Shown in pieces: positions 1-49,087 of a DNA stretch of 64,000 bases. Position numbers and translations under genes: made by a program. Each line of letters begins with the position of its first letter. The first letter of the stretch is position 1. Under the pieces are notes generated by a model, which worked only from the letters and a program-made list of their open reading frames with translations, had not been told where the DNA came from and ran no database searches. This DNA comes from Pirellula sp. (GTDB lineage: Bacteria > Planctomycetota > Planctomycetia > Pirellulales > Pirellulaceae), in assembly GCA_021736575.1 (NCBI GenBank), contig JAIPFP010000002.1, forward strand, positions 6,433 through 70,432. Reading direction: 5' to 3'.

Positions 1-3000
1 GTTGGGCAACATTGTCACGATCGCGCCCAAGGAGCTGGTCGCTTGAAACGTGCTGACCGAAAGGGCGTCGTTTGGTAAATCGACATCGCGATCATTTGTT
101 AGTACGCCCGGCGCACTGACCGTCAAAACAATGTCTTCACCCGTTGCATAAGAATCGTTAACGGCCACTGGAGCATCGTTGGCGGGTCGAATCACAACCG
201 TGATCAATTGAGGAGTCGACTGATTGACGTTTGGAGAAGTACTTGATCCATTGTCCCTAGCGAAGACACTTACGATAGCTGTGCCAAAAGCATCTTGAGC
301 TGGAACGAATTCCAAAACACCCGTGCCGCTAATGGTCGGTTGTACGGAGAACAGGCTTGGATTGTTGTTCGAGGTAAAGATCGAAACCGACTGTCCCGCT
401 TCGTCTAGCCCCGTTGGCGGCGTACTGTTCATGCCAGCAGCAGGAACAATGTTTCGGATCGCTGGAGCAGAGTATCGGTTCGAGTCTTCTGCTACCGATA
501 CATCGCCGATAACGATGAACCCCGGAGCATCATTCACAGGATTGGCTACGATCGTCAACTTGGAAGTGATCGAACGGTTTTGGTTTGGTGGGTTGCTTGC
601 GCCACTATCGACCGCAGTGACATCGACGATGGCTCGCCCGACCGCATCTTTTGCAAGAGAGAACGTCAGCACGCCAGTTGTGCTCACCGATGGCAGAACC
701 GAAAACAATGCGTCGTTATCTGTCGGTGTTTCGAAACGTAGAATCGTTTGTGTCGCGAGTTCGTCAAGCGCGCTTGGAGGTCCAGGCAGAATGCCCGTTG
801 CCCAATTGGCCGAGTAGGACGTAGTATCCTCGAGAACCGTGACATCGCTGCCAGGGATGAACTGGGGTGGGTTATTGATTGGGCCAACAGTAATGGTAAT
901 CGTCCCCGTCGCACTCTGTTGCGGCAGACCATTGTCGGAAACAACATATCGAATCAAATCGTTGCCCGAGAAATTGAGCGGGGTCTGATATCGGAACGAT
1001 ACAATTCGATCTCCAATAAAGACCGGCGTTACAATCCCGCCGTTGTCCGTTGTTCGTTCGACTTGGGTTATGCGAACGCGTTGACCCGCCGCGACTTCGT
1101 CGGCTGGACCGGCTACATCACCCGCCAGAACCACCGCTTCGGTTGCGTCAACAAATCCATTCTCAACTCCTTGCAATGTCAACGCATCCGGAATGGGCGG
1201 GTCATTTACGGGGTTGATGTTGACAGTGAATACTTGTTCAGCCGACATATTGACGTTGGGTGAGGGAGTGCCGAGCCCATTGTCGCGGAGAGAAACAAAC
1301 ACACGTCTCTGAATTCCAACCGTGTTATTATTAACGTCCTTGGCTGTTTGGAAAATCAAAGTCCCATCGCTTTGAAGCGTTGGCTGTACCAGGAAGGCAC
1401 TTGGGTTTTCCGCACGTACGTCAAAAGTTAGAACTTGAGTATTTTCATCGATAGCTGTGCCAGGGCCAGGTCGGATGCCCGTTGCAAACCCAGGGAGCGA
1501 AATCACGCCTTGGTCTTCATTCACAGTCGTCGAGGCTGGAATGGTGAACTCGGGTGCGTCATTGATTGCATTCAACGTAATCGTGAATGTGGCCGTTCTA
1601 CCCAAACTGTTATTGGGTGGTGGACCCGCTCGACCGTTGTCGCTCAGTCGAACAACCACCACGGCCGAACCGTTGCGATCCGGTGCAGTCTTGAACGAGA
1701 GTTTGCCCGTTCCATCGATGGTTGGTAGCTGAGAGAATAGCGTTGGATTGGATACCGAGATATTTACAAACGTGAGCACCTGTGCAGGCGTCGTCGGCGC
1801 AAAACTTCCGAACTCATCCAGCGCCGTTATGGGTCCAGGGAGCAAGTTGGATGCAAAACCCGGCACTTCAGTCAGTGTCGTGCCAGACAGGAATTCCTCG
1901 TCTTCCCTGGCTACGATATTGGTTGAATTTAGAACAAAGGTTGGCTGGTCGTTGATATCGGCGGCTGTGATCGTCAACGTCTTGGTAGTCGAAGCGGCCG
2001 TCGGTAGTCCATCATCGACAACCGTGATCAAGATATCCAAGCTACCCGAGAACAAACTATTCACGTCTGGAGCGAGTTGGAACTCCAGATCACCAGCCCC
2101 TGTCAACCTTGGTTGAAACGAGAAGTAGGCTGGATTGGCAGCAACGATCGTCGTGGTTAAGTTTTGGTTGATCTCGTCCACGGCGGTGACTGGACCCGGT
2201 GTCGGTGCAGACATAAAGCCCGGGATAATCGTCCTTGGAGCATCTTCTGTCGTGCTAAATGTGCTCGTCGACAGCGTGAACTCCGGTGGATCATTCACTG
2301 GAACCACATTGATCGTGATAAACTGCTTCGGCGATTGGAATTGATTGATGCCGCCTTGGGGTCCCAAGTCTTCCAAGTAGACCTCAACGACAATTGGGCC
2401 CGAGTTGAGGGCATTGACGTCAGGAGCAAGCCGGAACGTGAAGTCCCTACTGCTACCTGTTCCAACCACCCTTGGCTGCGTCGTGAAACTAGCCGGATTG
2501 AGAGCCCTTACCAAGAACCTCAGTCCCTGTCCGGTTACGCCTGGCACATTCCCAAGCTCGTCATCTGCACCCGTCGGTCCAGCTGCGATTTCAGTCACGA
2601 AATTGGTATACACTTGATCGGCCGGAGTCGGATCCTCCAAGAGCCCAATATTGGTTACCGGCAACGTGAACAGAGGTCGATCATTGACCGGGTTGATGTT
2701 CACCGTCAGGGTACTGAAGCTGGATTTCGGATCGGAGGAGGTTGGGAATCCACTCATGCCGTTGTCCTGGATCTCCAAAAGAATGAAGACAGGACCCTCG
2801 GTAAATTGGTTGTTGTAATGGGTGCCAGGCGTGTAGTTGACAATATTGCCCGTGACCGGTGGCAATAATTCGCCACTTCTGGGTGCTCGCACCGCACCTG
2901 TCGAATCAATCAACTGAGCCGACTTGACAATCAACGTTTGGCCCGACTCGTTGCCGGGACCTGGAAGATCATTGGCTGTAAACCGAACGCCTGCCCATGA

Positions 3001-5100
3001 TTGTGGGATATCCTCGTTGATGGTCTCGGTATCATTGGCAACCACGGGATTGTCATTGACCGGGTCAATGTTGATCGTGATGGTTTGAACCACGGTTTCA
3101 AACAAGTTGAGTCCACCCTGTGGGCCAGAATCTTGAGCAATGACCTCGACGAACAGACTGCCGTTCGGATTGGTGGCTGTGACGTAGTCCAGTCGATTGA
3201 CTTCTGGCTTGAGCTTGAATGTCAGGTCTCGACTGCTACCCGTGGCACCAATACTTGGCAGCGTCGCAAACGCGGTGTTGTACGGAGCGGGAGTGTTTAG
3301 GATGAACCTAACGGTCTGAGCTGGGACGGCTGGCGTAGGCAACATACTGCCCAAAAGCTCGTCGTCCGCAGAGCCTACTAGTCCAGGAATCAAAATCGGA
3401 CCTGCCGATACATTCGAAACGAAGTTAGGCACGACCACATCTTGACCTGCAGGGACAGGGTCTTCCAGCAACGAAACGGTCTGGGTCAACGGAAAGTCAA
3501 ACAACGGTCGATCGTTGACCGGCCGAATGTTGACCGTCAACGTACTGAACGAACTCTTCGGTGTCACAACGGGTGGGAACCCACTGACCCCATTGTCCTC
3601 AATTTCCAGTCGAATCAGCACAGGACCAGCAATGTCTTGGTTGTAATTGCTGCCTGGGGTGTAATTGACGACATTTCCGGAAACGGTTGGTAGCATTTCG
3701 CCAATTCTAGGTAAACGCACGGCGCCCGTCGAATCGATTAACTGGGCTGACTTGACGATCAACAATTGAGCGCGAGGGTCCGGCGAAAGGACGGACTCGT
3801 TGCCGGGACCCGGAACATCATTGGCAGTAAACCGAATGCCAGGCCATGATTGAACGATATCTTCGTCGATGGTCTCGGAATCATTGGTAACAACCGGATT
3901 GTCATTGATAGGGTCAATGTTGATCGTGATGGTTTGCACCACCGTTCTAAACAAATTGAGTCCCCCCTGAGGGCCGTTATCTTCCGCGATGACTTCGACG
4001 AAAAGACTGCCGCTTGGATTCGTGGCCGTCACGTAGTCCAAACGATTGACATCGGGCTTAAGCTTGAATGTCAGGTCGCGACTGCTGCCCATTGTGCCGA
4101 TACTTGGCAGCGTCTCAAACGCACTAGTGAAAGGAGCAAGCGTATTTAGGATGAACCTAACGGTCTGGGCTGGGACGATTGGCGTAGGCAATGTGCTGCC
4201 CAAAAGCTCGTCGTCCGCAGAGCCTACTAGTCCAGGAATCAAGATCGGACCTGCCGATACATTCGAAACGAAGTTAGGCACGACCACATCTTGACCTGCA
4301 GGGACAGGGTCTTCCAGCAAGGAAACGGTCTGGGTCAACGGAAAGTCAAACAACGGTCGATCGTTGACTGGCCGGATATTGACCGTCAACGTACTAAAGG
4401 CTGTCTTCGGATCAAGGGTTTGCGAGAAACCAGTGACTCCATTGTCTTCAATCTCAAGGCGAATAAAGACCCGACCAGCGATATCCTGGTTGTAATTGCT
4501 GCCTGGAGTGTAGCTGACGGTATTGCCAACCACGGCAGGAAGGAGTTCTCCAATCCCAGCTGCTCTTGGATTACCCGAGGCGTCGACAAGCTGGGCGGAT
4601 TTGACAATCAACGCCTGCGGATTTTCATTCGGAATCGCAGAGCCTGGCAATGGCAATGTAATTCCCTTGATGTCGTTTCCAGTAAACAGCGCACCAGGCC
4701 AACTTTGGACAATATCTTCGTCGATGGTTTGCGAGTCGTCGTTGGCAAACGGAACATCATTCACTGGGTTGACCGTAATCGTTACCGTTGCGGGTTGATT
4801 TCCGAGCAAGCGACGATCAGTCACTCGGTAGACAAACGTATCGGTCCCGAAGAAATTCGGAGCCGGCGTATAGGTAAACGAACCGTCCGCAAGCAGAACA
4901 AGCGTTCCATTTTGAGTGCTTGTCAGCGGCTGAATTCCGGACGCAAACGGATCCTCATCAAAGACGGATACGAGTGGCGGTGTCGTCGAAGGTGCAACGG
5001 GCGGATTGTCGGCATCTAGGTCATTGGTCAATACTCCATTTGCCGCCGTGACGAGAAGAACATTGTCTTCGTCAACACGATAGAGAGCTGCTTTGCTAGG
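1..5100 (-). repeat. Array of >=13 cadherin-like (VNDxP-delimited) domains in gene B, continuing beyond the window
   Basis: VND/IND/INN-x-P boundaries read on the minus strand near 190 (RPANDAPVAV), 540 (NPVNDAPGF), 885, 1215, 1565, 1955, 2300, 2690, 3060 (DPVNDNPVV), 3530, 3905, 4375 and 4765. Spacing is ~350-470 nt. Confidence 0.7.
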
Positions 5101-11100: not shown

Positions 11101-14100
11101 TGGATCGCGAATCGTGGTGACGACAGTTCCCGTTCCAGGGGCTCCAATAAAGCTAGGGGTCACCAATTCACCTTGGTTTGACACTCCAAAAAACTGAGAA
11201 TTGATCGATGCGAACCCGGTTATCAATCCGGTGGCAGCGTCAAAATAGCCGAATTCCCATTGGCTGCCTCCGGCACCGAAAAGCCTATTACCATCATTGG
11301 CCGTCTTGGATTGTAGACCGTTTTGGAAGTCAATTACGGCACCGGTGAGGGGATTCAGGCGATAAATAACGTTTCGCGTGATGGGAGTGTTGATTGGTGT
11401 TTCATTGAATGAGCCATCGCCTCTCCGGCTTCCCACTCCGTAAAACGCAGCGCTGGCAGGATTGTTTCCCGCGTCGGGGTCAATGTTGGTGTAGGTCAGA
11501 GCGGTAAAAACATAACCGTCGCCGACCGCGGTCGTACCGATTTGGCTCTGGCGTACAACAGGTGTGCCGCCTGGAACCGGGTACAAACCAAAAGTAGTCA
11601 AACCTGGGCCAACGCCGGCTCCAATCGCATCACTCGCGTCCCCGATATCAATTCCAAACATACTGCCACTATTGGCATCGGTAATCGCACCGGCGTCTGG
11701 GGAGCGTGTGCCAAAGGCGCGTCCGCCCGGCGATACCGCGATATCGTTCACCGTTCGCGAGTTGTTGTTCAAATTGATTGGATTGACACCGTCGTTGCTT
11801 GCTTCTGCCTCTTTTGCGCCTGTCAACGCATTGGCATATTGCATTCGCGATTGTCCACCAGCGCTCGTCGCAACAAAGAAAGTGACATCCGACAGATTGA
11901 ATGGTACCGCGTTTGGAAGCGCCGTTGGATCCGTGTTCGGTACGGCTGGCGACATCGCAGCCCCTAGCCCACCGAACGCTTGCATGACAGGTACTGCCGT
12001 TGTCGTTGGCCGACCAGGATTACCCGTGTCAAATCGATCTTCCGAAATTCGCCGAACGGACTCAAGTGGTTCCAATCGAACACTGGTGGTCGTGCTTCCA
12101 CCCACCACGGTGTACGCATCAAGCGAACTATCCGAAATGGCTCGATTGGAAACCGCTACGACGTAATTGCCTTGCGGCAGTTCGAATGGGCCAACGTAGG
12201 CATCGCGTCTGCCGTTTGAACCTCGCGTTAGATCGGTAAGGTTGCTACCCAGAAGAGGAGCGGGCTGGTCGTCCTGAATATTCGAATCATCGCCCGTTGC
12301 AACGAGCGTTAGATTGTTTCCGACCTTCTGATAGATCCATAGTTGGGTATTGGGGCGTCCAAAACCGTCGGCGTAGTCCAAGTCGAAAACGACCGATTGA
12401 TGCCACCGAGTCGCGTCGCTCACTTCGTTCGGTTGTTCGACAGAATCTCGAAATACTTGGAAATCAAAGTAGTCGATGTTGTCTCCGGTTACCAACGAAG
12501 TTGGGTTATTCGGATCTGGGGCAAGTCTACCCGCAACCGAGATCCCTGCCCGATCCGTGTTGAAGATGTTGCCGAGAAGTATTGGGTTCGCGGAATTATA
12601 AACGTTGGAGCGTTCGGTCGGGTCTGGCTCTCCGGCTTCGCCTACCAGTTGTGAATGCAGAGGCTGACCCTTGGCATCAATTCCATTGGCTGCGAATCGA
12701 ATGTCCGCAAAACGCACAGTCGAGCCGGCAACTTCGTCCGTTTGCTGAAGTCGCAATTGCAATTTGTACTCACCAACGGTGATACCTTGGCGCACTGCGG
12801 CCACATCCAACAAGCGAGCGAGCGATGCCGCAGCGCCACTGTTGGTAATCGCAGGAGTAACGTTGCTGCTGCGAACGCGCACGAAGTAATTGTTAACACT
12901 GCCCGCTACGCCGGGAAGGACTGCTCGAAAGCCTGCATCGAGAGGATTCACACCCAGGAAATCGACCGGCGTTTGGTTCGCACTATTTCGTCGCGTAAAT
13001 GCACTCTGATCCATTGGCCAAGCGCGAATGGTCGATACCAAATTGGTGTCGGAATAAACCGATCCTGCAGTCGATTCATCGATCGAATTATTGCTCAAGG
13101 CAATGATCTGGCCGTTCCCATCCACCAACTCAATCACGGAATCCAATGATCCAGACGTTTGATCTACATCGAACCAAACCATCGACCCAGCGGTTCCAGT
13201 AAATCGATAAATATCAATGTCGCTAGGGGACGCGATCGAACCGGTTATGGTCATTCCCAATCGCAAATTTTCATCGCCGCCGCTCAGCGACGTGGCCAAT
13301 GAGCCGAGGTCTTGTGCATTAGACGGAAAATCATTGAATCCCTGGGAAGCAATCTGGTCAGGCTCCCTCTCGTACGACGCGTCGACATTGCGATCATTAC
13401 TAAAAGGATCGAACAAAAGCGATCGCCAATTTCCTGGTGCGGCGGATGTAGCGTTGCCATTGCCATTCGTATCGAGCAGAGACTTCCCGGAAAAATCAAA
13501 TCCGGCACCGATCGAATCGTCATTGAGACTGGTTAACACGACAGGGAAGCCGGGCGAACCCAAAACTTGCAAAGAGCCGCCGATGCGATCCTTGATGTCC
13601 AAAGGACGACCCGTGGCGGTAAAGCCCGCTGTGTTGCCTAACAACTTGATAACCAGACTTTCGTCCGACTTGCTCGTCAATCGCAGTCCGCCGTACGTGT
13701 GGAAGTCAACGACAACGATCTCACTTTGCAACATGTGAACGATATCCGTGTCGTCCCATACGCCTTCGGTCGTCAGAGTCGCACCGCGAACTCGCATACC
13801 GTTTAACGCGTTACCGCCTAACTGATTGTTGTTGATCAATGGACCAAAGTTCCCAATGCCAACGTTTTCGCGTTGGTTGGTACCCGTCTGACGTCCGAAG
13901 TCTCGCACGCTTTCCGAATTAAGCGAATTGCCATCGATACTGATGGCAGCCGTGTCGTTGACGAAGTTGGCAGTGCTGGCATCTCGAACGGAATTGTTCC
14001 TAATGACATTATTCAAAAGAACGGGCTGGCTGCCGACGATAAAGATGGCTGCGGCGTCGTTCACTCCACGCGAATCCCGATTGGTCGTTCCACGGTTCGT

Positions 14101-17100
14101 TGTTCCCGATGAGTTGGTCTCCAGGACTGAATTCGAAACGCGAGCGGTAGACTGATGGATTTCGATCGCATTGAAGGATGCGAAACCGCCAGGTACTCGG
14201 GAGTTGCCACCGCCAAACGTTATCAACGCGTTGTCGATACTGAGTTCGCCCAAATGACGCGACACAATACCGGCCCAGTTACCGGCTGTAGGGGTTCCGA
14301 ACCCATCATTGTTGGTATCAAAGTTTCCACCAGCTCCGTAGCGATCGTCGAGTCTCGATGTAAAGACAATCGGCTTCGACTCCGTTCCCTCAGCCAACAT
14401 GGTTGCACTGATGCCAACTTCGATCCGTCCACCTAAGCTCTTGATAACAACACCCGGATCGACGACTAAACTCGCATCGCGACGCGCTCGCTGCACGCTC
14501 GTTAGGCCTTGCGTTTGCAATTGGCCGCTAAGTGTAAACCCGTTGTCGACGAAGGTTACATCATCTCGATTCTGGACCGCTGCTAACCGGAACGGTCCTG
14601 AATTGTTTTCTTGACGCCAGATTTTACGCGACACATAGTCAAGCGTAGCGGGCGCCAGATTCGTCAATCGAACCGACTGCCCTGCGACCGTAACGGTCGA
14701 TCTTTGCGGGCTTGGCAAACTCTCTTGCCCAAATCGATCCATATAGGTGACGAGATAGTTCACGGCAACCGAAGCAGCGAAACCCGATCCAGCCGTCGGA
14801 GGGACAATGCTCATCGAGATAAGGGACGAGTCCGGCAACGCCAGTTCTCGACCGGAACCTCCCGGTGTCCCCTCTATGATCAAATTTTCTCCAAGAACGA
14901 TCGTGATTTCAGAATCATTCATGCGACCAGGTACGCTCAGCGGCTTCAGATTTTGGCCTGCCAGCGTGTCGATTCGAACGAACAGTCCATTTATCGAATT
15001 GTTAAGCAACGAATTGGAGCGGATGTCCGGTCCGATTCGGGAGTAGTCAGGGATAAAGGAACCAACGTTTTGATAGCGTGATTCGGTGAACAATGTTTCT
15101 TCGAAACTGTTCGGATCGGCTGTGATGGCCGCATCCGCGCTACGCGAAATGACATTGTTTAATATAAACGGCCTGACTTCCGTCAAATCGATCGGGCTAA
15201 CAACTTTGGAAAGTGCGCCCACACCGACTTGCCCACCACCCCATCGCATGTCCGCGTTGGAGATGGTATTTAGGAAAATACCATCTCGCTCACGATCGAC
15301 GCGACCTTGCGATCGGTCGAAATCGTTTCGGATTTCGATGCCGCCCCAATTGCCGGCTGCGGGATTGGTCAACAATGGGTTGGTGTCACGTCCCAACGAT
15401 TCATCGTCATAACTGGTGAAATAGACTGGGCGATTTGGCAATCCCAGGACTTGAATCGCGGCGTTGCTACGATTGGTTGTACTGTCATTGCTACCTACAA
15501 GAATTTTGCTTCCGCCAAATTTCAGTATCGCACCCGCGTCGATCATCAACGTAACGCCGCGCGGCACATCGAGGGTTGCTCCGTCGGAAAGCGATCCGCC
15601 AGAAGCACCACCGGTTCCAATTTCGTATGCTGCATCATCGAGAAGGCTAGTGGTCCTCGTGTCGCCAACCAATCGGATGATGTCACCCGGACGCGAGGCT
15701 GCAGCCGCAGCGTCGATTCGATTGAACGGATTTGTCAATGAACCATCTCGCGTCGTACCTGTAAAAGCCTTGTCGACGAATAGAGTCCGAACCGGTGGGT
15801 TACCTGCTACGGTATAGGGTGTTGCGGCTCGGAACCAAAAATCAAAATTGCCGCCTGCAATACCGTCTCCATCACCGTCCAGCGCGCTTCCTTTGGCTGT
15901 CGATCCCCGAACCTCTTCCGAAATCTGGTTGGCAACGTTACTCTTAAAATCAAGTCGCAATTGATAGAGCCCTTGGCTCACCGCTCCGCTTCCTGAGTTG
16001 AGGGTCAAGGGATTGTTATCTTCGTTGCCACTGGCGGTAACCGACAAGTAGTATTCACCTGGAACGAGGTCGGCTCGCACCAGCGAGTCGTCGCTGAAGT
16101 AGTTGTCGTTTGCGGCAACCGTCTCAAGCGTTCCGTCGGCATTCTTTCGAAACAACGTCAAGTGCGTATCCAAGTTGCTTGAATAGTTCAGTCGTTCGGC
16201 AATCGTTTCCGCTCTCAATTGCCCTTGAGCACCGGGTGCAACCACAAACTTGTAAAGGTCGACATCGCGATTATCGGGACGGAAAAGATGCTGTCCGTGA
16301 ACAACATCATTGTTTCCTGGATAGATTTGCTCGAGCCCAGTTGCTCGTCGGGCAGCAAGATCATTCCGCATGATCGTACCGATCGGTAGATCGAACGCAT
16401 TATCCAGCCCAAGCGATTGACCGATTTCATGCATGGCGGTCTTAAAGAAACTCTCCGTCCCTGGAATATTGGACCCGTTGCCGAACCCATTGTCCCATGC
16501 TTCCGAACCGTCCAAAATCACTAAACTTAGAGCAGGCACGGCTCCGATTGGAGCCCTGTTAATGGAGCTGATAATGTCGCCGGGACCGCTAATGCGCCCG
16601 TTCGGCGTCATATCACCAACCACAATTCTTTTGGTCGCGGGGTCGACGCCAGCGGCCGCGAGCGACCCAAGTTGCTCGACGAAATCGACGCCAAGTTGAG
16701 CCGAATACAACTCCAAGACTTCTCGCACTCTTTGCTTTTGGTCAGGCGTGATCGAAGTAAAAAGCGGCCTTCCCGCCGAGTCAATTCCGTAGGACTCGGT
16801 CTCCATAAAACTATAAAAAATCGTCGTGATGCCGTTGACGGTGTCGGCACCGCCCGCCAAGTGACTAATGTCTTGGATCTCGCGATGCCCCGGCTCAAAA
16901 TCGGAGCCTGGGAAATCGGCCAGCAATGGGTTGCTGACGGTACGAATCTCTTGATTGATCAGGGTCGAGAATGTTCCCGAAATGGTCCCAAGGTCGGCTT
17001 GCCCAGTGACTCCAGTCAAGAATCCGGCTGGATCCGTCGGCGGCGAGATCGAGTTGACGCTGAGCGGATTGGCTGCCGATGCAACCGCCTCGTTCGAACC

Positions 17101-17973
17101 AACTCTCAATCGAAATGTTCCTGCTCCACCAGCGATTTGATCGATATCGGTCGCAAAGCTGAGCGTTGCCCTTTTTGCGACTGGGTCGAATGTAATCGAC
17201 TGAGGGTTCGTCACGACATCATCATTTGGACTAACGGTGTCCTTAGTCAGTATCAGCGAGTAAAACGCAGGATCGACCACGGTTGGGTTGGGCGCAGCGC
17301 CCGTCGTGATGGATGCATTAGGGAACTGGCTATCGTAGAACAGCTCGTTATCGTTGAAGTAGATCTCGATATCTTTGTTTCGCTGCGTCAAGGCACCATT
17401 GCTCGCGCGGTCGATGGGTTGTGGGACAACCGCGATGATTTTGGTGCCGAGCTCCAAATTGAAGTCATACGTATCGCGATCCGTCTTGTCGCGTCGCGGT
17501 TGCAAAGTGAGTCCCTGCAAATCCTTAATGGCACCGGGCACTGTCAAACCCAACACTTCAATCCGATACAAATCGTCAGGAAGAGGTTGCGAAAAACGTG
17601 CAACAACGATGAGGTTGCTTTCCCCAAAATTTTGAAACGCAGGCTGAACCGTTACGTCCGCCAATGGTGAAGCTGTTCCAAAACTGGCATCCCCACCAGC
17701 ACGCGTAATCCGGATACCACTCCCAATCGTCGTTGCATCTAACGCTTCACTGAACCGAAATACCAATTCGCGAGGCGATTCAAGCAGACTGTTTGCCCGT
17801 GTTGTCGAAAGAATCTCTCCCGAATTTGAGGCAACAGAAAGGAGTCGCGGCGAATCCGCAGCCATCAGGTCTCGTCGTTCGAGATTCTCGCAGATCAGTG
17901 TGCGAAATTCCTTCCTACGCGACTTCACCGAGGACCGAGAGCGGTTGGCAGATTTGGATGCGTCAATTCCCAT
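1..17973 (-). CDS. Giant secreted mosaic repeat protein, paralog B (start at 17973; 3' end beyond the left window edge; >=5991 codons visible)
   Basis: Not in the ORF track (edge-truncated). ATG is at 17973-17971. Manual translation gives MGIDASKSANRSRSSVKSRRKEFRTLICENLERRDLMAADSPRLLSV..., collinear with the N-terminus of the 18083..36553 protein. I translated scattered segments (17973-16081, 15840-15661, 14100-13981, 13221-13141, 11340-11041, 10860-10561, 10140-10021, 9204-9000, 8520-8341, 8094-8001, 7494-7300, 7200-7141, 6870-6720, 6320-6240, 5700-5530, 5400-5150, 3090-3040, 60-1). All are in one frame, have no stops and show sensible motifs. Every >=60-aa minus-strand ORF listed by the track in 1-18000 lies in a single other frame. 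Confidence 0.9.
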   Translation of the reverse strand, partial: MGIDASKSANRSRSSVKSRRKEFRTLICENLERRDLMAADSPRLLSVASNSGEILSTTRANSLLESPRELVFRFSEALDATTIGSGIRITRAGGDASFGTASPLADVTVQPAFQNFGESNLIVVARFSQPLPDDLYRIEVLGLTVPGAIKDLQGLTLQPRRDKTDRDTYDFNLELGTKIIAVVPQPIDRASNGALTQRNKDIEIYFNDNELFYDSQFPNASITTGAAPNPTVVDPAFYSLILTKDTVSPNDDVVTNPQSITFDPVAKRATLSFATDIDQIAGGAGTFRLRVGSNEAVASAANPLSVNSISPPTDPAGFLTGVTGQADLGTISGTFSTLINQEIRTVSNPLLADFPGSDFEPGHREIQDISHLAGGADTVNGITTIFYSFMETESYGIDSAGRPLFTSITPDQKQRVREVLELYSAQLGVDFVEQLGSLAAAGVDPATKRIVVGDMTPNGRISGPGDIISSINRAPIGAVPALSLVILDGSEAWDNGFGNGSNIPGTESFFKTAMHEIGQSLGLDNAFDLPIGTIMRNDLAARRATGLEQIYPGNNDVVHGQHLFRPDNRDVDLYKFVVAPGAQGQLRAETIAERLNYSSNLDTHLTLFRKNADGTLETVAANDNYFSDDSLVRADLVPGEYYLSVTASGNEDNNPLTLNSGSGAVSQGLYQLRLDFKSNVANQISEEVRGSTAKGSALDGDGDGIAGGNFDFWFRAATPYTVAGNPPVRTLFVDKAFTGTTRDGSLTNPFNRIDAAAAASRPGDIIRLVGDTRTTSLLDDAAYEIGTGGASGGSLSDGATLDVPRGVTLMIDAGAILKFGGSKILVGSNDSTTNRSNAAIQVLGLPNRPVYFTSYDDESLGRDTNPLLTNPAAGNWGGIEIRNDFDRSQGRVDRERDGIFLNTISNADMRWGGGQVGVGALSKVVSPIDLTEVRPFILNNVISRSADAAITADPNSFEETLFTESRYQNVGSFIPDYSRIGPDIRSNSLLNNSINGLFVRIDTLAGQNLKPLSVPGRMNDSEITIVLGENLIIEGTPGGSGRELALPDSSLISMSIVPPTAGSGFAASVAVNYLVTYMDRFGQESLPSPQRSTVTVAGQSVRLTNLAPATLDYVSRKIWRQENNSGPFRLAAVQNRDDVTFVDNGFTLSGQLQTQGLTSVQRARRDASLVVDPGVVIKSLGGRIEVGISATMLAEGTESKPIVFTSRLDDRYGAGGNFDTNNDGFGTPTAGNWAGIVSRHLGELSIDNALITFGGGNSRVPGGFASFNAIEIHQSTARVSNSVLETNSSGTTNRGTTNRDSRGVNDAAAIFIVGSQPVLLNNVIRNNSVRDASTANFVNDTAAISIDGNSLNSESVRDFGRQTGTNQRENVGIGNFGPLINNNQLGGNALNGMRVRGATLTTEGVWDDTDIVHMLQSEIVVVDFHTYGGLRLTSKSDESLVIKLLGNTAGFTATGRPLDIKDRIGGSLQVLGSPGFPVVLTSLNDDSIGAGFDFSGKSLLDTNGNGNATSAAPGNWRSLLFDPFSNDRNVDASYEREPDQIASQGFNDFPSNAQDLGSLATSLSGGDENLRLGMTITGSIASPSDIDIYRFTGTAGSMVWFDVDQTSGSLDSVIELVDGNGQIIALSNNSIDESTAGSVYSDTNLVSTIRAWPMDQSAFTRRNSANQTPVDFLGVNPLDAGFRAVLPGVAGSVNNYFVRVRSSNVTPAITNSGAAASLARLLDVAAVRQGITVGEYKLQLRLQQTDEVAGSTVRFADIRFAANGIDAKGQPLHSQLVGEAGEPDPTERSNVYNSANPILLGNIFNTDRAGISVAGRLAPDPNNPTSLVTGDNIDYFDFQVFRDSVEQPNEVSDATRWHQSVVFDLDYADGFGRPNTQLWIYQKVGNNLTLVATGDDSNIQDDQPAPLLGSNLTDLTRGSNGRRDAYVGPFELPQGNYVVAVSNRAISDSSLDAYTVVGGSTTTSVRLEPLESVRRISEDRFDTGNPGRPTTTAVPVMQAFGGLGAAMSPAVPNTDPTALPNAVPFNLSDVTFFVATSAGGQSRMQYANALTGAKEAEASNDGVNPINLNNNSRTVNDIAVSPGGRAFGTRSPDAGAITDANSGSMFGIDIGDASDAIGAGVGPGLTTFGLYPVPGGTPVVRQSQIGTTAVGDGYVFTALTYTNIDPDAGNNPASAAFYGVGSRRGDGSFNETPINTPITRNVIYRLNPLTGAVIDFQNGLQSKTANDGNRLFGAGGSQWEFGYFDAATGLITGFASINSQFFGVSNQGELVTPSFIGAPGTGTVVTTIRDPQTNAAINFTGMTAGPRNVEGGRYANLLFGITAAGRIYAFNPFASPTLGPAGTLQPIFPRGERFVQGTGLGNIAGIDFSSLDVNLWHASDRENGTAGHGRPADFNNSRDTFNGNRSAKFGFADPNSPNKQPGIWSGIYNTYVSNAAGDNVAAAGGAMGALESDLIDLRSYSADDQPMLYFNYTLPTQNSAANNDGTALGDNRPALDTFRVYGAGESGNWVLLGTNNSIDNRSYTDMAGQDEFDISISQNQDAFGRTRISSEVFDNAGWRQARINMGALAGQRDVRIRFEFNTGGDFRTGDPLRGGQELVAIPGDRLTDGNTFVVAGTTFEFDLGLVMQLPSGASVVDGDQISINGTLYTFKLTGAPAAREIGFASNFTPTQLANSVRTALTLDGRTVATSTQSPDILNVSGLPAAGTYSILGADPAIIIGRPGVVAGRTAVPVTNAMTAIQVRDSIVVSLAGALNVAGQTANTSVYRTRGNVILLHGTGMIVTNPGPLGATTARAGDDFTEGGFFGAGLRTQSNKAGSVHIDDIVIGFAERGEKVIGATPSAAPTFNPTGGYQLTGGSAVPGEPIDEIEGGTYQLEIREAADYGTTAGTALRLDSFPPPPLGRTYDTNDRLTKSSRLIFNAPSAIADGATFKLSDGVNTATFEFDVATSAADRAAGTTPGNVPITILPSETREQIARKIRDAINSTAAQAVIKITASTNGDMKVGTADRPANGRAIAIDLHGPVANDELGNASSALFSAGGVPLTLVSFGSESAFGEDLGDANIRRDQGQFIVSSNSISRSSGFGLNIDAAPQSQTQIAANTGNRPYPGVVRNLVTLNSSNVAPGVVVMNNVLSGNLAGGINISGDTGGTTATGIPPQTVARVINNTLYGRRGDIGINVTEGASPSLLNNIIANFGTGINVVGAPSLGGTILGANLYQSNATTVTPASVGSSESFPILLAAGDPLFVDGPNGRFYLRALSQAIDSSFSSLENRANIEEVKNAIGLPTSPILAPAFDVNGLRRSDDPAVSPPFGLGQNVFIDRGATDRVDFVGPIAVLQRPLDNDSNQLDTDPFNTYVRLRTGNYDFFEILLDERTGTGTDPNTITADSLILTENGRPLVQGVDYIFGFSANSRTIRLTPLAGFWRRDSIYEMTLINKPTLRVDPTSGATILDGARVMVNASNGAQAVLEFDSGFKLTVPQTLTFKVPAAGSASAGITDGQTFQISNGALNVTFEFDTNNLVTAGNRPIAIIADQTATQVRDAIVAALRSATNADLNLGVKGYGTDLIHLGTLAVHNASVGTSRLTRQGVASGVADGQTFMFDPANGPAITLEFNLTGDTAFGAGNRLITFDRTDTYIDLAGKIAAVMATVVPKGFAPVEDLKDGTVQIGGQVGDLLTVTGSQLGVIGTPGVTGSFELAVPAAGGTAIADATRFSIRNAAGQTVVFEFDKDGTITPGNRGISIRNTDTADQIAVAISTSIAGSGLGITPTTTTRFIRLNEPRGSIVNVLTSGLLLTGVSGGAISVPFVSSFNNNSVSAQLVKAFSSIGLGVNAYALGYGTFIVEGVTSITGVATTSIGPVSDLAGNWLLPNRVNSLTQFTILMPEVSVDYGDAMERPNTGSTSNTLLVNNGVRHGLYPTGVPVLALGQFADGDVDGMPSTSADGDDFSSSFAFTAGMPLTLSPKGPAQLSVSAPAPAMLGTRVTISDTVNRTVTYQFWDSSVPASAVPTGIVGVDLNLVTTANGAAAALQSEIFKSILAGTITKIYAIVNGNVVSLGGTFGHTFDLSQSGGFVQRVPKGSIGLSVNPTLTGLAAGQVLTIQDGSGNSVTFQIIDQAVQSALIAGNVPLVINFATATQASFAADVAKAINGEIQKGTLALPTATVVGGTVNVNADDEDGVRFDGLFNPLIPPVPVVITSTDTGFIDAWVDWNQDNDFEDAGEKILSSEPVNAGENTFLISTPLNATVGYTTARFRLSATGGLFTYGLAIGGEVEDHVIEVLAGIPPVAVNDPDPSKAALYRVDEDNVLLVTAANGVLTNDLDADNPPVAPSTTPPLVSVFDEDPFASGIQPLTSTQNGTLVLLADGSFTYTPAPNFFGTDTFVYRVTDRRLLGNQPATVTITVNPVNDVPFANDDSQTIDEDIVQSWPGALFTGNDIKGITLPLPGSAIPNENPQALIVKSAQLVDASGNPRAAGIGELLPAVVGNTVSYTPGSNYNQDIAGRVFIRLEIEDNGVTGFSQTLDPKTAFSTLTVNIRPVNDRPLFDFPLTQTVSLLEDPVPAGQDVVVPNFVSNVSAGPILIPGLVGSADDELLGSTLPTPIVPAQTVRFILNTLAPFTSAFETLPSIGTMGSSRDLTFKLKPDVNRLDYVTATNPSGSLFVEVIAEDNGPQGGLNLFRTVVQTITINIDPINDNPVVTNDSETIDEDIVQSWPGIRFTANDVPGPGNESVLSPDPRAQLLIVKSAQLIDSTGAVRLPRIGEMLPTVSGNVVNYTPGSNYNQDIAGPVLIRLEIEDNGVSGFPPVVTPKSSFSTLTVNIRPVNDRPLFDFPLTQTVSLLEDPVPAGQDVVVPNFVSNVSAGPILIPGLVGSADDELLGSMLPTPAVPAQTVRFILNTPAPYNTAFATLPSIGATGSSRDLTFKLKPEVNRLDYVTATNPNGSLFVEVIAQDSGPQGGLNLFETVVQTITINIDPVNDNPVVANDTETINEDIPQSWAGVRFTANDLPGPGNESGQTLIVKSAQLIDSTGAVRAPRSGELLPPVTGNIVNYTPGTHYNNQFTEGPVFILLEIQDNGMSGFPTSSDPKSSFSTLTVNINPVNDRPLFTLPVTNIGLLEDPTPADQVYTNFVTEIAAGPTGADDELGNVPGVTGQGLRFLVRALNPASFTTQPRVVGTGSSRDFTFRLAPDVNALNSGPIVVEVYLEDLGPQGGINQFQSPKQFITINVVPVNDPPEFTLSTSTFSTTEDAPRTIIPGFMSAPTPGPVTAVDEINQNLTTTIVAANPAYFSFQPRLTGAGDLEFQLAPDVNSLFSGSLDILITVVDDGLPTAASTTKTLTITAADINDQPTFVLNSTNIVAREDEEFLSGTTLTEVPGFASNLLPGPITALDEFGSFAPTTPAQVLTFVNISVSNPTLFSQLPTIDGTGKLSFKTAPDRNGSAVVVVRLSDNGRAGPPPNNSLGRTATFTITLNAINDAPEFTIPASTTVNEDQGVISLPGFATGIRPGPGTAIDENTQVLTFDVRAENPSAFLVQPTLQSDGTLIFQTAKDVNNNTVGIQRRVFVSLRDNGLGTPSPNVNMSAEQVFTVNINPVNDPPIPDALTLQGVENGFVDATEAVVLAGDVAGPADEVAAGQRVRITQVERTTDNGGIVTPVFIGDRIVSFRYQTPLNFSGNDLIRYVVSDNGLPQQSATGTITITVGPINNPPQFIPGSDVTVLEDTTSYSANWATGILPGPPSALDELATQTILRFETPTDNDALFSVLPSVSTTGVLTFSLAKDAVGRAIVDVTAVDSGASNPPNQNRSITSKLTIVANPVNDAPGFIVIGDVSVAEDSNRYSAPAIRNIVPAAGMNSTPPTGLDEAGQSVSIFTSNNNPSLFSVQPTISGTGVLEFVPAQDAFGTAIVSVFARDNGSSTSPNVNQSTPQLITVVIRPANDAPVAVNDSYATGEDIVLTVSAPGVLTNDRDVDLPNDALSVSTFQATSSLGAIVTMLPN
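2612..4800. repeat. Tandem ~830-849 bp coding repeat (about 2.6 units; each unit is two cadherin-like domains) within gene B
   Basis: 3300-3550 versus 4149-4400 are ~95 percent identical by eye (offset 849). The rest of each unit is much more diverged. A third, more diverged unit starts near 2612. The track's antisense ORFs 3001..3300/3850..4149 and 3442..3693/4291.. mirror the repeat. Confidence 0.85.
5150..6320 (-). other. GEVED-type domain of gene B, apparently split by a ~0.7 kb insertion
   Basis: The ends were translated: MPEVSVDYGDAMERPNTGS...NNGV (6320-6240) and FIDAWVDWNQDND...ARFRLSATGGLFTYGLAIGGEVEDHVI (5400-5150). The distance between them is about twice that in gene A, and the FEF copy at 5530-5700 lies inside. 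The middle is only partly translated. Confidence 0.5.
5530..10140 (-). repeat. Region of gene B with dispersed copies of the same FEF module (6 copies verified by translation)
   Basis: Translated: VVAGTTFEFDLG..VVDGDQISINGTLYTFK (10140-10021); IADGATFKLSDGVNTATFEFD..GNVPITI..REQIARKIRDAIN (9204-9000); ITDGQTFQISNGALNVTFEFD..GNRPIAI..QVRDAIVAAL (7494-7300); VADGQTFMFDPANGPAITL (7200-7141); IADATRFSIRNAAGQTVVFEFD..GNRGISI (6870-6720); LTIQDGSGNSVTFQI..GNVPLVINF..ADVAKAING (5700-5530). Confidence 0.7.
13700..15780 (-). other. Parallel beta-helix (PbH1-like) block of gene B
   Basis: Translated FVDKAFTGTTRDGSLTNPFNRIDAAAAASRPGDIIRLVGD (15780-15661) and IVGSQPVLLNNVIRNNSVRD (14040-13981). Both are collinear with the gene A beta-helix region. 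The extent is approximate and mostly not translated. Confidence 0.5.
16380..16900 (-). other. Serralysin/matrixin (M10)-like domain of gene B with a partly degenerate zinc-binding motif
   Basis: Manual translation: ...QKQRVREVLELYSAQLGVDFVEQ... then FFKTAMHEIGQSLGLDNAFD (HEIGQSLGLDN at 16431-16399). H-E is kept, the second His is Gln, and the third ligand position is D-N. Confidence 0.55.
17860..17892 (-). other. N-terminal LExRxLxA-type motif of gene B (CENLERRDLMA)
   Basis: Manual translation, residues 28-38 after a basic stretch (NRSRSSVKSRRKEFR). Same position as in gene A. Confidence 0.6.
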
Positions 17974-18082
17974 GTTGGATAAACCTTGGAGACTTTGCAG
18001 ACTTAAAAATGAAAATGGGGTTGATTTAGAATTAATTGGAGCGGGCACCTCTGTCGAGATGCCACTCCGTATTAGTTTGGAT

Positions 18083-45927: not shown

Positions 45928-46476
45928 TTATTGCGACGCAACGGATGCTTGAATCTGACGAACGAGTTCTTGCGAAACCAAACCACTCAAGGCTAGATCC
46001 CGGATCAGTTTCGCGGCAAATTTCTCACGTGATCCTAGGGAAACATCTCCCGCCGCTTCCATTTGACGGTCACAACTGGCAACCACCTCGCCAAACTGCT
46101 TTTGATCGGGGAGCTGGCACATGGCCTTGATTACGATCTGCGAGGTGTTGGAAACCACCTCGTACAACTCCGATTCCGATTCAATCCTTTTCACGCGCTC
46201 CATCCAATAGGCGTTCCAAGCAATTCCACCCATCGAATAAATGCTGGCAACCATGGTTAGCATGCTCAGAACGCTCAGCGACAGAATGGTTCGTGCTGCG
46301 TCTCCCACCACCCTATTTGCCCAGAGGAGATAGACGCAAACGACCATCAGAGCCGCAGAGACGGTGAAAATCAGGGCTACCGTTCTTAATCGATGAAGCA
46401 AAATCCTAGCGGTGCTTCTGCCGCTGTTCACATGCATCGCAATTCTCAAAGACTCTTCTGCGGTAAGCGTACTCAT
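45928..46476 (-). CDS. Membrane protein co-transcribed with the ECF sigma factor (candidate anti-sigma factor)
   Basis: 182 aa with two hydrophobic helices (VALIFTVSAALMVVCVYLLW; ILSLSVLSMLTMVASIYSMGGIAW). ATGA overlap with the sigma gene. No zinc-finger anti-sigma motif was seen, so the function is positional inference. Confidence 0.55.
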   Translation of the reverse strand: MSTLTAEESLRIAMHVNSGRSTARILLHRLRTVALIFTVSAALMVVCVYLLWANRVVGDAARTILSLSVLSMLTMVASIYSMGGIAWNAYWMERVKRIESESELYEVVSNTSQIVIKAMCQLPDQKQFGEVVASCDRQMEAAGDVSLGSREKFAAKLIRDLALSGLVSQELVRQIQASVASQ

Positions 46477-49078: not shown

Positions 49079-49087
49079 ACTTGAAAC

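What the first reader, a model, noticed from the sequence alone, without database searches (positions are those of the whole stretch)
1..17973. An ~18 kb giant ORF is invisible in the supplied ORF track
The track shows only short, mostly antisense ORFs across 1-18000, which makes the region look non-coding. The minus strand actually carries one continuous frame from ATG 17973 to base 1 (5991 codons) and beyond. Its N-terminus (…RKEFRTLICENLERRDLMA…GIRITRAGGDASFG…YRIEVLGL…) is collinear with the neighbouring 6156-aa protein. About 28 percent of the window is therefore one unlisted gene whose true size is unknown.
Basis: seen in the sequence. Interest (0 to 1): 0.7.

Follow-up and report, generated by a model that had tools for sequence, protein, structure and literature searches.

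The report
Edge-truncated giant planctomycete surface-protein gene
The "empty" first 18 kb of the window is a real gene of about 19 kb that runs off the window edge and encodes a giant secreted or surface protein of a Pirellula-like planctomycete; such genes are common in this phylum, so the find is correct but ordinary.

Summary
The minus-strand frame from ATG 17973 to base 1 has 5991 codons and no stop; the other five frames have 86-346 stops. It was invisible only because the ORF lister omits ORFs that run off the window.

It is a real gene. dN/dS is 0.11 over 3924 codons against a 91%-identical Pirellula MAG ortholog. Orthologs end about 415-418 codons beyond the window edge, so the full protein is about 6,400 aa.

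Architecture of gene B:
- an N-terminal planctomycete export-type motif (RRLxxExLExRxLLA-like) with no classical signal peptide
- a conserved β-rich head
- an MMP-fold metzincin domain whose zinc site is degenerate (HEIGQSLGLDN)
- PPC domains
- a roughly 2,500-aa region with no family match
- a GEVED domain
- 13 cadherin-like "tandem-95" repeats, plus about 3 more off-window
- by homology, a C-terminal dockerin and an acidic tail

B is a collinear paralog (25-45% identity) of upstream gene A (6156 aa). A additionally carries an intact deseasin-like subtilase. The A-then-B tandem is conserved in two other genomes.

The head module defines a large family: 579 cluster representatives at E≤1e-30, many of 4,000-7,700 aa. 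I call it a new member of a known kind, most likely a Ca-dependent surface or adhesion protein. Its function has not been tested.

The parts
1..17973 (-). Gene B, 5' part. Giant ORF of 5991 codons from ATG 17973, open to the window edge. Estimated full length is about 6,400 aa.
   Evidence: No stops in frame. dN/dS 0.11 against L001. Orthologs end 415-418 codons further on.
17860..17919 (-). N-terminal planctomycete export-type motif, aa 19-38 (RRKEFRTLICENLERRDLMA). There is no hydrophobic signal-peptide core.
   Evidence: Weak PF07595 Planc_extracel hit, 17.3 bits against a cutoff of 25.5. Matches the consensus RRLxxExLExRxLLA quoted in PMC8567305. Maximum hydropathy in the first 80 aa is 0.66. 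82 of 104 large family members have an LExRxLLA-like motif.
16834..17853 (-). Conserved head region, aa 41-380, with no Pfam match. Shared with gene A and with the whole family.
   Evidence: Collinear HSPs with A. Conserved in 1147 library representatives. No Pfam hit at E≤1.
16279..16824 (-). Metzincin (MMP/karilysin-fold) domain, aa ~384-565. Likely catalytically dead.
   Evidence: Weak Pfam M10 hit, 14.2 bits. AF2 model with pLDDT mostly 75-90 in this part. Foldseek matches karilysin and MMP catalytic domains at TM-target ~0.7, E 4e-5.
16399..16431 (-). Degenerate zinc-binding motif, aa 515-525: HEIGQSLGLDN in place of HExxHxxGxxH. The second and third His ligands are lost.
   Evidence: Orthologs P0001/2/3/5/6/9 keep HExxHxxGxxH. 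Across the family, 91 are intact and 83 degenerate.
16036..16266 (-). PPC (pre-peptidase C-terminal, collagen-binding-like) domain, aa 570-646.
   Evidence: Pfam PF04151, 28.7 bits against a cutoff of 25.9. Foldseek matches ColG collagen-binding and PPC domains at TM-target 0.54-0.63.
14374..15786 (-). β-strand-rich region, aa ~730-1200, probably a β-helix or fibre-like stalk. The A/B homologous block continues to aa ~2000.
   Evidence: AF2 model is all-β with pLDDT 75-93 in most 10-residue blocks; there is one low-confidence dip at model residues ~630-710. Weak tail-fibre-like Foldseek matches. 38.7% identity to A over B aa 1052-2000.
13033..13218 (-). Second, weak PPC-like domain, aa ~1586-1647.
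   Evidence: Pfam PF04151, 19.8 bits, below the cutoff.
5374..13026 (-). Central region, aa ~1650-4200, with no confident family or structure match. Non-repetitive.
   Evidence: Pfam and NCBIfam give nothing except a weak Beta_helix hit at aa ~3067-3152. PDB phmmer gives 0 hits. AF2 model of aa 2201-3400 has pLDDT 44. Only three short internal self-matches at 32-40% identity, none in tandem.
5146..5367 (-). GEVED domain, aa 4203-4276.
   Evidence: Pfam PF20009, 53.6 bits against a cutoff of 24.4.
1..5124 (-). Array of cadherin-like / Big_9 / 'tandem-95' repeats, aa ~4284-5991. There are 13 units in the window and the array continues off-window.
   Evidence: Pfam Cadherin_4 143.7 bits, Cadherin_5 and Big_9. 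NCBIfam NF012211 116 bits against a cutoff of 90. Iterated HMM finds 13 units at aa 4361-5949, and 3 more in the L001 tail. Self-BLAST repeats.
2743..4470 (-). Recent internal duplication within the repeat array: aa 4502-4800 against 4785-5077, 81% identical.
   Evidence: Chunked self-BLASTP.
17974..18082 (-). 109-bp gap between the stop of gene A and the start of gene B, on the same strand. No terminator-like site on the minus strand within the gap.
   Evidence: Sequence and scan. The same tandem layout is seen in L023 and L024.
18083..36553 (-). Gene A, the giant collinear paralog (6156 aa from TTG 36553; the start is more likely ATG 36547).
   Evidence: the ORF listing. BLASTP against B. 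Pfam.
25232..26197 (-). Subtilase S8 catalytic domain embedded in gene A (A aa ~3453-3774). Absent from gene B.
   Evidence: Pfam S8, 163.7 bits. PDB 3vv3 deseasin MCP-01, E 9e-97. DSG 3499-3501, HGT 3554-3556 and GTSMASP 3718-3724 motifs are present. A aa 3112-4161 has no counterpart in B.
18428..18625 (-). Two dockerin type I repeats at the C-terminus of gene A (A aa 5977-6042), followed by an acidic tail. The equivalent module of B lies beyond the window edge.
   Evidence: Pfam Dockerin_1, 47.9 and 44.8 bits. The tail of the B ortholog in L001 has Dockerin_1 at 41 bits.

Best explanation
Bases 1-17973 (minus strand) are the first 5991 codons of an intact, selectively maintained gene of about 19.2 kb in a Pirellula-like planctomycete. 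It encodes a giant secreted or cell-surface protein of about 6,400 aa.

Shown here:
- the open frame and purifying selection
- the domain order: N-terminal RRLxxExLExRxLLA-type motif, conserved head, MMP-fold domain with a degenerate zinc site, PPC, β-rich stalk, a long unannotated core, GEVED, then at least 13 cadherin-like tandem-95 repeats
- paralogy and tandem linkage with gene A, which additionally carries an intact subtilase
- membership of a large family of 4-7.7 k-aa proteins

Inferred:
- The protein is exported through the planctomycete-specific N-terminal motif rather than a classical Sec signal peptide.
- It forms an elongated fibre stiffened by Ca2+. The cadherin-like repeats and PPC/GEVED modules bind surfaces or polymers.
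- Its off-window C-terminal dockerin tethers it to a partner.
- The metzincin-like domain of this copy acts as a binding or structural module, not a protease.
- Gene A, probably co-transcribed, supplies a real protease activity.

The gene's absence from the ORF track is purely an artefact, because edge-running ORFs are not listed.
For: Open frame: 5991 codons with 0 stops against 86-346 stops in the other frames.

Selection: dN/dS is 0.11 overall and 0.05-0.15 in every 400-codon window, over 3924 codons against L001. Orthologous frames of more than 4,000 codons are intact in L001, L003, L005, L006, L007, L008, L010, L012 and L013.

Length: L001 continues 418 aa and P0059 415 aa beyond the window edge.

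Domains: Pfam and NCBIfam, repeat HMM, and AF2 plus Foldseek showing an MMP fold and PPC. The degenerate HExxH motif contrasts with intact orthologs. The ortholog tail carries a dockerin.

Export and location: no TM segment or signal-peptide hydrophobic core. The motif consensus and its proposed export role are taken from PMC8567305.

Paralogy and tandem conservation. Subtilase in A.

Family size: 579 representatives at E≤1e-30; 87 of 138 listed are at least 4000 aa.

Host: Pirellula MAG hits and planctomycete-specific neighbours, namely DUF1501, PSCyt1/2, PSD1 and DUF1571. GC is flat at 51-54% across the window.

Background: giant genes were found in all 29 planctomycete genomes analysed, and more than 90% of bacterial giant genes encode surface proteins or PKS/NRPS (PMC5177795).
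Against: There is no expression or localisation data.

The 3' end and stop codon of this exact gene are not in the window, so intactness of the last ~415 codons is inferred from relatives.

The Planc_extracel Pfam hit is below the gathering score (17.3 against 25.5 bits), and the export role of the motif is only a hypothesis in the literature.

About 2,500 aa of the protein have no assignable fold; the second AF2 model failed with pLDDT 44. An enzymatic activity could be hidden there.

No cohesin partner was seen in the window.

In two public assemblies (L023, L024) the orthologs are split over several frames. This could be sequencing error or real decay.
Confidence: 0.85

Rival explanations
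1. The open frame is a decaying pseudogene or an assembly chimera of repeats, not a functional gene.
For: Orthologs in L023 and L024 are split across several reading frames. A public short-read contig carrying this locus breaks inside gene A. The metzincin zinc site is degenerate.
Against: There are no stops in 5991 codons. dN/dS is 0.11 in all sub-windows. Only the last ~1,700 aa are repetitive, and no DNA tandem repeats are detected in the gene. Nine other genomes keep intact frames of 4,063-4,615 codons. Loss of the zinc site is common in full-length family members.
Confidence: 0.04
2. B is an active secreted metalloprotease or a polymer-degrading enzyme complex. On this view it is a 'planctosome'-type dockerin-tethered peptidase, and its main role is degradation, not adhesion.
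For: The family head has an MMP-fold domain, intact in about half of the members. PPC domains typically accompany secreted peptidases. Paralog A carries an intact deseasin-like subtilase. Dockerins occur at the C-termini. A cohesin-dockerin peptidase complex has been hypothesised for freshwater planctomycetes (PMC6461901).
Against: In this copy two of the three zinc-binding His are replaced (HEIGQSLGLDN), and gene A's motif is ACIGMVLGLEH. B has no S8 module. No cohesin was detected in A, B or the neighbours. No glycoside hydrolase or other catalytic domain was found.
Confidence: 0.08
3. B is a type I-secreted RTX/LapA-like giant adhesin, exported by a C-terminal signal through an ABC/MFP/TolC system.
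For: It is a giant repetitive protein with Ca-binding modules near the C-terminus and a conserved acidic C-terminal tail in orthologs. It lacks an N-terminal signal peptide.
Against: No RTX (HemolysinCabind) repeats or T1SS retention module appear in the Pfam or NCBIfam scans. No ABC, MFP or TolC genes lie in the 27 kb beyond gene A. A conserved planctomycete N-terminal motif is present instead.
Confidence: 0.03

Closest known systems
Planctomycete 'giant genes' (Reva & Tümmler 2008; Kohn et al. 2016, PMC5177795)
   Same: Gene of more than 5 kb (here about 19 kb) in a Pirellulaceae genome. It has adhesion-type domains and a large unannotated part. Kohn et al. found such genes in all 29 planctomycete genomes they analysed, and 15 strains had genes over 20 kb.
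   Different: That class is defined by size only. The specific family seen here (export motif, metzincin-like head, PPC, cadherin-like repeats, dockerin) was not mentioned in the passages of those papers that I retrieved by keyword search; I did not read them in full. The tandem A/B pair is a locus-specific feature.
Proteins with the 'Planctomycete extracellular' N-terminal motif (PF07595; Studholme et al. 2004, as cited in PMC8567305)
   Same: RRKEFRTLICENLERRDLMA in B and RRCLLETLESRQMLA in A fit the consensus RRLxxExLExRxLLA close to the N-terminus. There is no classical signal peptide.
   Different: Pfam scores are below the gathering threshold (17.3 and 17.5 bits against 25.5). The export function of the motif is itself only hypothesised.
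Bacterial cadherin-like / tandem-95 repeat proteins (PF17803, PF17892, PF17963; NCBIfam NF012211)
   Same: The C-terminal ~1,700 aa score well above the curated cutoffs. There are 13 units of ~115-140 aa.
   Different: Here the repeats make up only the last quarter of the protein. They are fused to a metzincin-like head, PPC, GEVED and (off-window) a dockerin.
Matrixin/karilysin-type metzincins (Pfam M10)
   Same: The predicted fold matches karilysin and MMP catalytic domains at TM ~0.7. Orthologs carry HExxHxxGxxH followed by a conserved ...GTIM that may be the Met-turn.
   Different: This copy has HEIGQSLGLDN: the second His is Gln and the third position reads Asn. It is therefore most likely a pseudo-protease. 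The Pfam score of 14.2 is below the cutoff of 24.
Dockerin-bearing proteins / the hypothetical 'planctosome' (Andrei et al. 2019, PMC6461901)
   Same: A has C-terminal type I dockerin repeats and B has them by homology, in both cases on a protein with peptidase-type domains. The hypothesis concerns the same phylum.
   Different: No cohesin partner was identified. The proteins are three or more times larger than those in the model. The planctosome was proposed for a different family (Nemodlikiaceae) and remains hypothetical.
Deseasin MCP-01-type subtilases (PDB 3vv3). Applies to paralog A only.
   Same: A aa 3453-3774 align at E 9e-97, with the Asp, His and Ser motifs present and a following PPC domain.
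   Different: The module sits in the middle of a 6,156-aa protein and is entirely absent from gene B.

Membership tests
Bacterial giant gene (size criterion >5 kb, Reva & Tümmler 2008 as used in PMC5177795) | A single uninterrupted coding frame longer than 5 kb | tested here: met
   17,973 nt are open in the window. Relatives imply about 19.2 kb in total.
Bacterial giant gene (size criterion >5 kb) | A real gene under selection, not a chance ORF | tested here: met
   dN/dS 0.11 over 3924 codons. The other frames have 86-346 stops.
Planctomycete extracellular-motif proteins (PF07595) | RRLxxExLExRxLLA-like motif near the N-terminus | tested here: inconclusive
   The motif is visible at aa 19-38 and fits the consensus. 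The Pfam score of 17.3 bits is below the gathering score of 25.5.
Planctomycete extracellular-motif proteins (PF07595) | Export to the cell surface or exterior | not testable with these tools
   Indirect only: adhesion-type domains, and no TM segment or signal peptide.
Metzincin / M10 matrixin peptidases | Metzincin catalytic-domain fold | tested here: met
   Foldseek matches karilysin and MMP-11/8/12/13 at TM-target 0.63-0.72, E 4e-5 to 1e-3, using a model with pLDDT mostly 75-90 in that part.
Metzincin / M10 matrixin peptidases | Zinc-binding motif HExxHxxGxxH | tested here: not met
   B has HEIGQSLGLDN and A has ACIGMVLGLEH, while orthologs P0001/2/3/5/6/9 are intact.
Metzincin / M10 matrixin peptidases | Pfam PF00413 score above the gathering threshold | tested here: not met
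   14.2 bits against 24.
Tandem-95 / bacterial cadherin-like repeat proteins | Repeats scoring above the curated cutoffs of NF012211, PF17803, PF17892 and PF17963 | tested here: met
   NF012211 116.2 against 90. Cadherin_4 143.7 against 25.1. Cadherin_5 48.1 against 26.5. Big_9 47.7 against 23.6. There are 13 units.
Dockerin-cohesin systems (cellulosome-like / 'planctosome') | Type I dockerin on the protein | tested here: inconclusive
   B's C-terminus is off-window. The ortholog tail in L001 has Dockerin_1 at 41 bits and paralog A at 47.9 bits, against a cutoff of 22.9.
Dockerin-cohesin systems (cellulosome-like / 'planctosome') | A cohesin-bearing partner encoded in the genome | not testable with these tools
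   No cohesin hit in A, B or the 20 neighbouring ORFs scanned. The rest of the genome is not available.
T1SS RTX/LapA-type giant adhesins | C-terminal RTX nonapeptide repeats | tested here: not met
   No HemolysinCabind or RTX family in any Pfam or NCBIfam scan of B, A or the L001 tail.
T1SS RTX/LapA-type giant adhesins | Adjacent ABC transporter, MFP and TolC genes | tested here: inconclusive
   None among the genes at 36.9-63 kb. The side downstream of B is off-window.
NRPS/PKS megasynthases (the other main class of giant genes) | Condensation, adenylation, KS, AT or carrier-protein domains | tested here: not met
   No such Pfam or NCBIfam hits.
Subtilase S8 | S8 catalytic domain with the Asp/His/Ser triad | tested here: not met
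   Absent from B. Present and intact only in paralog A. A aa 3112-4161 has no counterpart in B.

The most novel reading that the evidence does not exclude
The conserved A-then-B tandem may be a functional two-protein surface machine. Both giants would be exported through the still uncharacterised RRLxxExLExRxLLA route. They would be tethered through their C-terminal dockerin and acidic tail to an unknown, non-cellulosomal partner.

A's embedded deseasin-like subtilase would process substrates, or the giants themselves. The repeatedly inactivated metzincin-fold head (83 of 174 family members degenerate) would have been repurposed as a substrate- or ligand-binding pseudo-protease.

This would make the family a tractable model for planctomycete surface-fibre biogenesis and for the function of the orphan export motif.
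Probability: 0.12. Interest if true: 0.55.

Novelty: new member of a known kind. Interest (0 to 1): 0.25.

Why it matters
For the scan, the main lesson is practical. ORF tracks that drop edge-running ORFs can hide more than a quarter of a window, so such "non-coding" stretches should be re-checked with partial ORFs allowed. With gene A included, 57% of this window is two giant genes.

Biologically the gene is one more member of a very large family of planctomycete giant surface proteins whose function has not been tested. Three modest points of interest emerged:
- The A/B tandem is conserved.
- The metzincin zinc site has been lost frequently and in many different ways across the family.
- The proteins combine an orphan N-terminal export motif with C-terminal dockerins, which bears on how planctomycetes build their surface structures.

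Tried and rejected
I used 1200-aa pieces instead. The hits those two searches returned were almost all fragments of about 2,000 aa or less, so they did not give B's full length.

2. phmmer of B aa 1-5000 against PDB sequences gave 0 hits.

3. The AF2 model of the unannotated core (aa 2201-3400, only 9 aligned sequences) gave pLDDT 44. I judged it unusable and ran no fold search on it.

4. Whole-protein self-BLASTP returned only the identity hit. I replaced it with chunked BLAST.

5. I tried to locate the window's own contig so as to extend it leftwards. The only exact match to a window protein was a 31-kb Logan contig that ends inside gene A. The stop codon of this exact gene could therefore not be read.

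6. TRF found no DNA-level tandem repeats in the gene, so repeat-collapse misassembly is unlikely.

7. The tRNA and Rfam scans of the window were empty.

8. The NRPS/PKS, RTX/T1SS and pseudogene readings were rejected; see the rival explanations and the membership test.
Full report
**1. Observation**

Translating the reverse complement of window 1..17973 gives 5991 codons that begin with ATG (17973-17971) and contain no stop. Over the same stretch the other two minus frames contain 228 and 256 stops, and the three plus frames contain 86, 152 and 346. An open frame of this length cannot be chance.

The nearest upstream in-frame stop is at 18115-18117, inside the end of the neighbouring gene. Family members align from their own residue 1 to residue 1 of this translation (MGIDASKS...). 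ATG 17973 is therefore the likely start.

The ORF listing returns only 23 ORFs of at least 100 aa in 1..18000. Of these, 22 lie on the opposite strand and the longest is 332 aa. The tool description states that ORFs running off an end are not listed. The "invisibility" is a listing artefact, and the antisense ORFs are shadows of the real frame.

**2. It is a real gene, and its size can be estimated**

A scan of one genome per species found 13 close relatives, all labelled Pirellula or Pirellulaceae. The closest is L001, a MAG labelled Pirellula staleyi. It is 91.5% identical at the protein level over B residues 2048-5991.

Nei-Gojobori dN/dS over 3924 aligned codons is 0.11 (dN 0.045, dS 0.40). 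Every 400-codon sub-window lies between 0.05 and 0.15. That is clear purifying selection along the whole compared length, including the parts covered by the long antisense ORFs.

In nine related loci the homologous frame stays open for 4,063-4,615 codons up to the locus edge. It ends at a stop shortly after the point that matches window base 1. L001 continues 418 codons beyond that point. The 6,504-aa family member P0059, collinear with B throughout, continues 415 residues. The full protein is therefore about 6,400 aa and the gene about 19.2 kb.

GC content is flat at 51-54% across the window, and no DNA-level tandem repeats occur in the gene. Nothing points to recent foreign origin or to repeat-collapse misassembly.

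**3. Anatomy of gene B** (protein coordinates; window coordinates are in the parts list)

- **aa 19-38:** RRKEFRTLICENLERRDLMA fits the planctomycete N-terminal consensus RRLxxExLExRxLLA (PF07595). This motif is thought to be a novel export signal (Studholme 2004, as quoted in PMC8567305). The Pfam hit is sub-threshold at 17.3 bits against 25.5. There is no hydrophobic signal-peptide core and no TM-like segment anywhere in the protein.
- **aa 41-380:** a conserved head with no Pfam match.
- **aa ~384-565:** a metzincin-like domain. Pfam M10 is only a weak hit. An AlphaFold model of aa 330-1200, built with 27 homologs (mean pLDDT 73, mostly 75-90 in this part), matches karilysin and MMP catalytic domains at TM-target ~0.7, E 4e-5. 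The zinc motif reads HEIGQSLGLDN instead of HExxHxxGxxH.
- **aa 570-646:** a PPC domain (Pfam 28.7 bits). The model matches ColG collagen-binding and PPC domains.
- **aa ~730-1200 and onward:** a confidently predicted all-β region with weak tail-fibre-like matches. There is a second, weak PPC at aa ~1586-1647.
- **aa ~1650-4200:** no family or PDB match. A second AF2 model here failed with pLDDT 44.
- **aa 4203-4276:** a GEVED domain.
- **aa ~4284-5991:** cadherin-like / Big_9 / tandem-95 repeats, all above curated cutoffs. An iterated HMM finds 13 units. One stretch was recently duplicated: aa 4502-4800 against 4785-5077, 81% identical.
- **Off-window, by homology:** the L001 tail carries three more repeat units, two dockerin type I repeats (41 bits), and an acidic tail ending LDSVFADEDWM.

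**4. Neighbour and conservation**

Gene A (18083..36553, minus strand, 6156 aa) is a collinear paralog at 25-45% identity. It has the same N-terminal motif, a degenerate metzincin motif (ACIGMVLGLEH), PPC, GEVED, six cadherin-like units, and a C-terminal dockerin with an acidic tail.

A contains about 1,000 aa that B lacks (A aa 3112-4161). This insert includes a complete subtilase, which matches deseasin MCP-01 (3vv3) at E 9e-97 with the DSG, HGT and GTSMASP motifs all present.

A's stop and B's start are 109 bp apart on the same strand, with no terminator-like site on that strand within the gap. Co-transcription is therefore plausible, though this is an inference.

The same order, an A-like gene ending in a dockerin followed about 100 bp later by a B-like gene, is present in two other assemblies at 64% and 50% identity (L023, L024). 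The duplication is therefore old and the linkage is maintained. In those two assemblies the genes are split over several frames. I cannot tell sequencing error from decay there.

**5. Family**

An exhaustive HMMER search with B aa 1-700 found 1,147 cluster representatives at E≤1e-3 and 579 at E≤1e-30. Of the 138 newly listed, 87 are at least 4,000 aa, 37 are at least 6,000 aa, and the longest is 7,699 aa.

Among 104 members of at least 3,000 aa, 82 have an LExRxLLA-like N-terminal motif. At least 43 have a strict dockerin-like motif in the last 400 aa.

The zinc motif is intact in 91 and degenerate in 83 of 174 members where it could be aligned. The degenerate forms are highly varied, which indicates many independent losses. 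This count depends on BLAST alignment of a short motif and should be taken as approximate.

Sources name these proteins only generically: hypothetical, large repetitive protein, matrixin family metalloprotease, PPC domain-containing protein.

**6. Host and context**

The remaining genes in the window are typical planctomycete genes:
- two DUF1501 + PSCyt/PSD1 pairs
- an ECF-type sigma factor
- a σ54 activator
- ribBA
- class II aldolase
- DUF1571

There is no secretion system, cohesin, or ABC/MFP/TolC set among them. No tRNA or Rfam hits were found.

**7. Interpretation**

Shown: gene B is an intact, conserved giant gene of the planctomycete surface-protein type, truncated by the window edge.

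Inferred: it is exported through the N-terminal motif and forms a long Ca-dependent fibre. The PPC, GEVED and cadherin-like modules bind surfaces or polymers. The C-terminal dockerin tethers it to a partner. In this copy the metzincin-fold domain is a pseudo-protease, while paralog A provides a real serine protease.

Rival readings are weakly supported. These are a pseudogene, an active degradative "planctosome"-type enzyme (PMC6461901), and a T1SS RTX-type adhesin. An NRPS/PKS reading is excluded, because none of its defining domains is present.

**8. Novelty and score**

Giant genes are a documented hallmark of the phylum. Kohn et al. found them in all 29 genomes they analysed, and 15 strains had genes over 20 kb (PMC5177795). 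Hundreds of relatives of this protein are already in public databases.

The finding is correct and useful for annotation: 28% of the window is this gene, and 57% with gene A. But it is a new member of a known kind, not a new kind of system. I score interest at 0.25. The side observations (conserved tandem pair, recurrent loss of the zinc site, orphan export motif combined with a dockerin) give the novel reading a probability of about 0.12.

Noticed in passing
window 25232-26197 (-), within gene A 18083-36553: Gene A has a complete deseasin MCP-01-like subtilase embedded mid-protein. It matches PDB 3vv3 at E 9e-97, with the DSG (3499-3501), HGT (3554-3556) and GTSMASP (3718-3724) motifs present and a pro-domain-like stretch before it. 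The roughly 1,000-aa insert that carries it is missing from gene B.
   Followed up: partly
family-wide (P0001-P0193); window 16399-16431 and gene A aa ~706-720: The metzincin zinc motif HExxHxxGxxH is intact in 91 and degenerate in 83 of 174 family members, in many different ways. Both window copies are degenerate, whereas the closest B orthologs (P0001/2/3/5/6/9) are intact. This suggests repeated conversion to pseudo-proteases.
   Followed up: partly
L023 1-23399 and L024 1-25328: The tandem order is conserved at 64% and 50% identity: an A-like giant gene ending in a dockerin, then a B-like giant gene. In both assemblies the giant genes are broken over several reading frames, either by sequencing error or by decay.
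   Followed up: partly
window 2743-4470 (-): Recent internal duplication of about 290 aa in the cadherin-like array (aa 4502-4800 against 4785-5077, 81% identical). The other repeat pairs are mostly 25-40% identical, with two neighbouring register pairs at 51-61%.
   Followed up: no
window 9898-10851 (+) and 16672-17670 (+): Long antisense 'shadow' ORFs of 317 and 332 aa lie inside gene B. One plus frame has only 86 stops in 18 kb. They fall within stretches where the B frame shows dN/dS ~0.1, so they are very unlikely to be genes.
   Followed up: partly
L025 (Logan SRR12088353 contig, 31 kb): The only public contig carrying an exact copy of a window protein (the DnaJ-like 530-aa ORF, 37942-39534) ends 3.6 kb into gene A. 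Short-read assemblies evidently break in these giant genes.
   Followed up: no
window 39559-42719 (-), 45928-47009 (-), 47660-51625 (-): Two DUF1501 + PSCyt/PSD1 gene pairs flank an ECF-type sigma factor (46473-47009) and an overlapping 182-aa ORF with no family match (45928-46476), which may be an anti-sigma factor.
   Followed up: no
window 44047-45741 (-), 51884-53242 (+), 53582-55858 (+): Three sizeable ORFs (564, 452 and 758 aa) have no Pfam match at E≤0.001.
   Followed up: no
family members P0080, P0093, P0099, P0111, P0113 (C-termini): Some giant family members end in a short hydrophobic stretch followed by an Arg/Lys cluster (e.g. ...GWLAGLAMLTPALRRRRSKSDDE) instead of the acidic ...LDSxFAxExW tail. 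This suggests alternative C-terminal anchoring or sorting signals within one family.
   Followed up: no
It may describe part of the head or stalk region, but I could not examine it.
   Followed up: no
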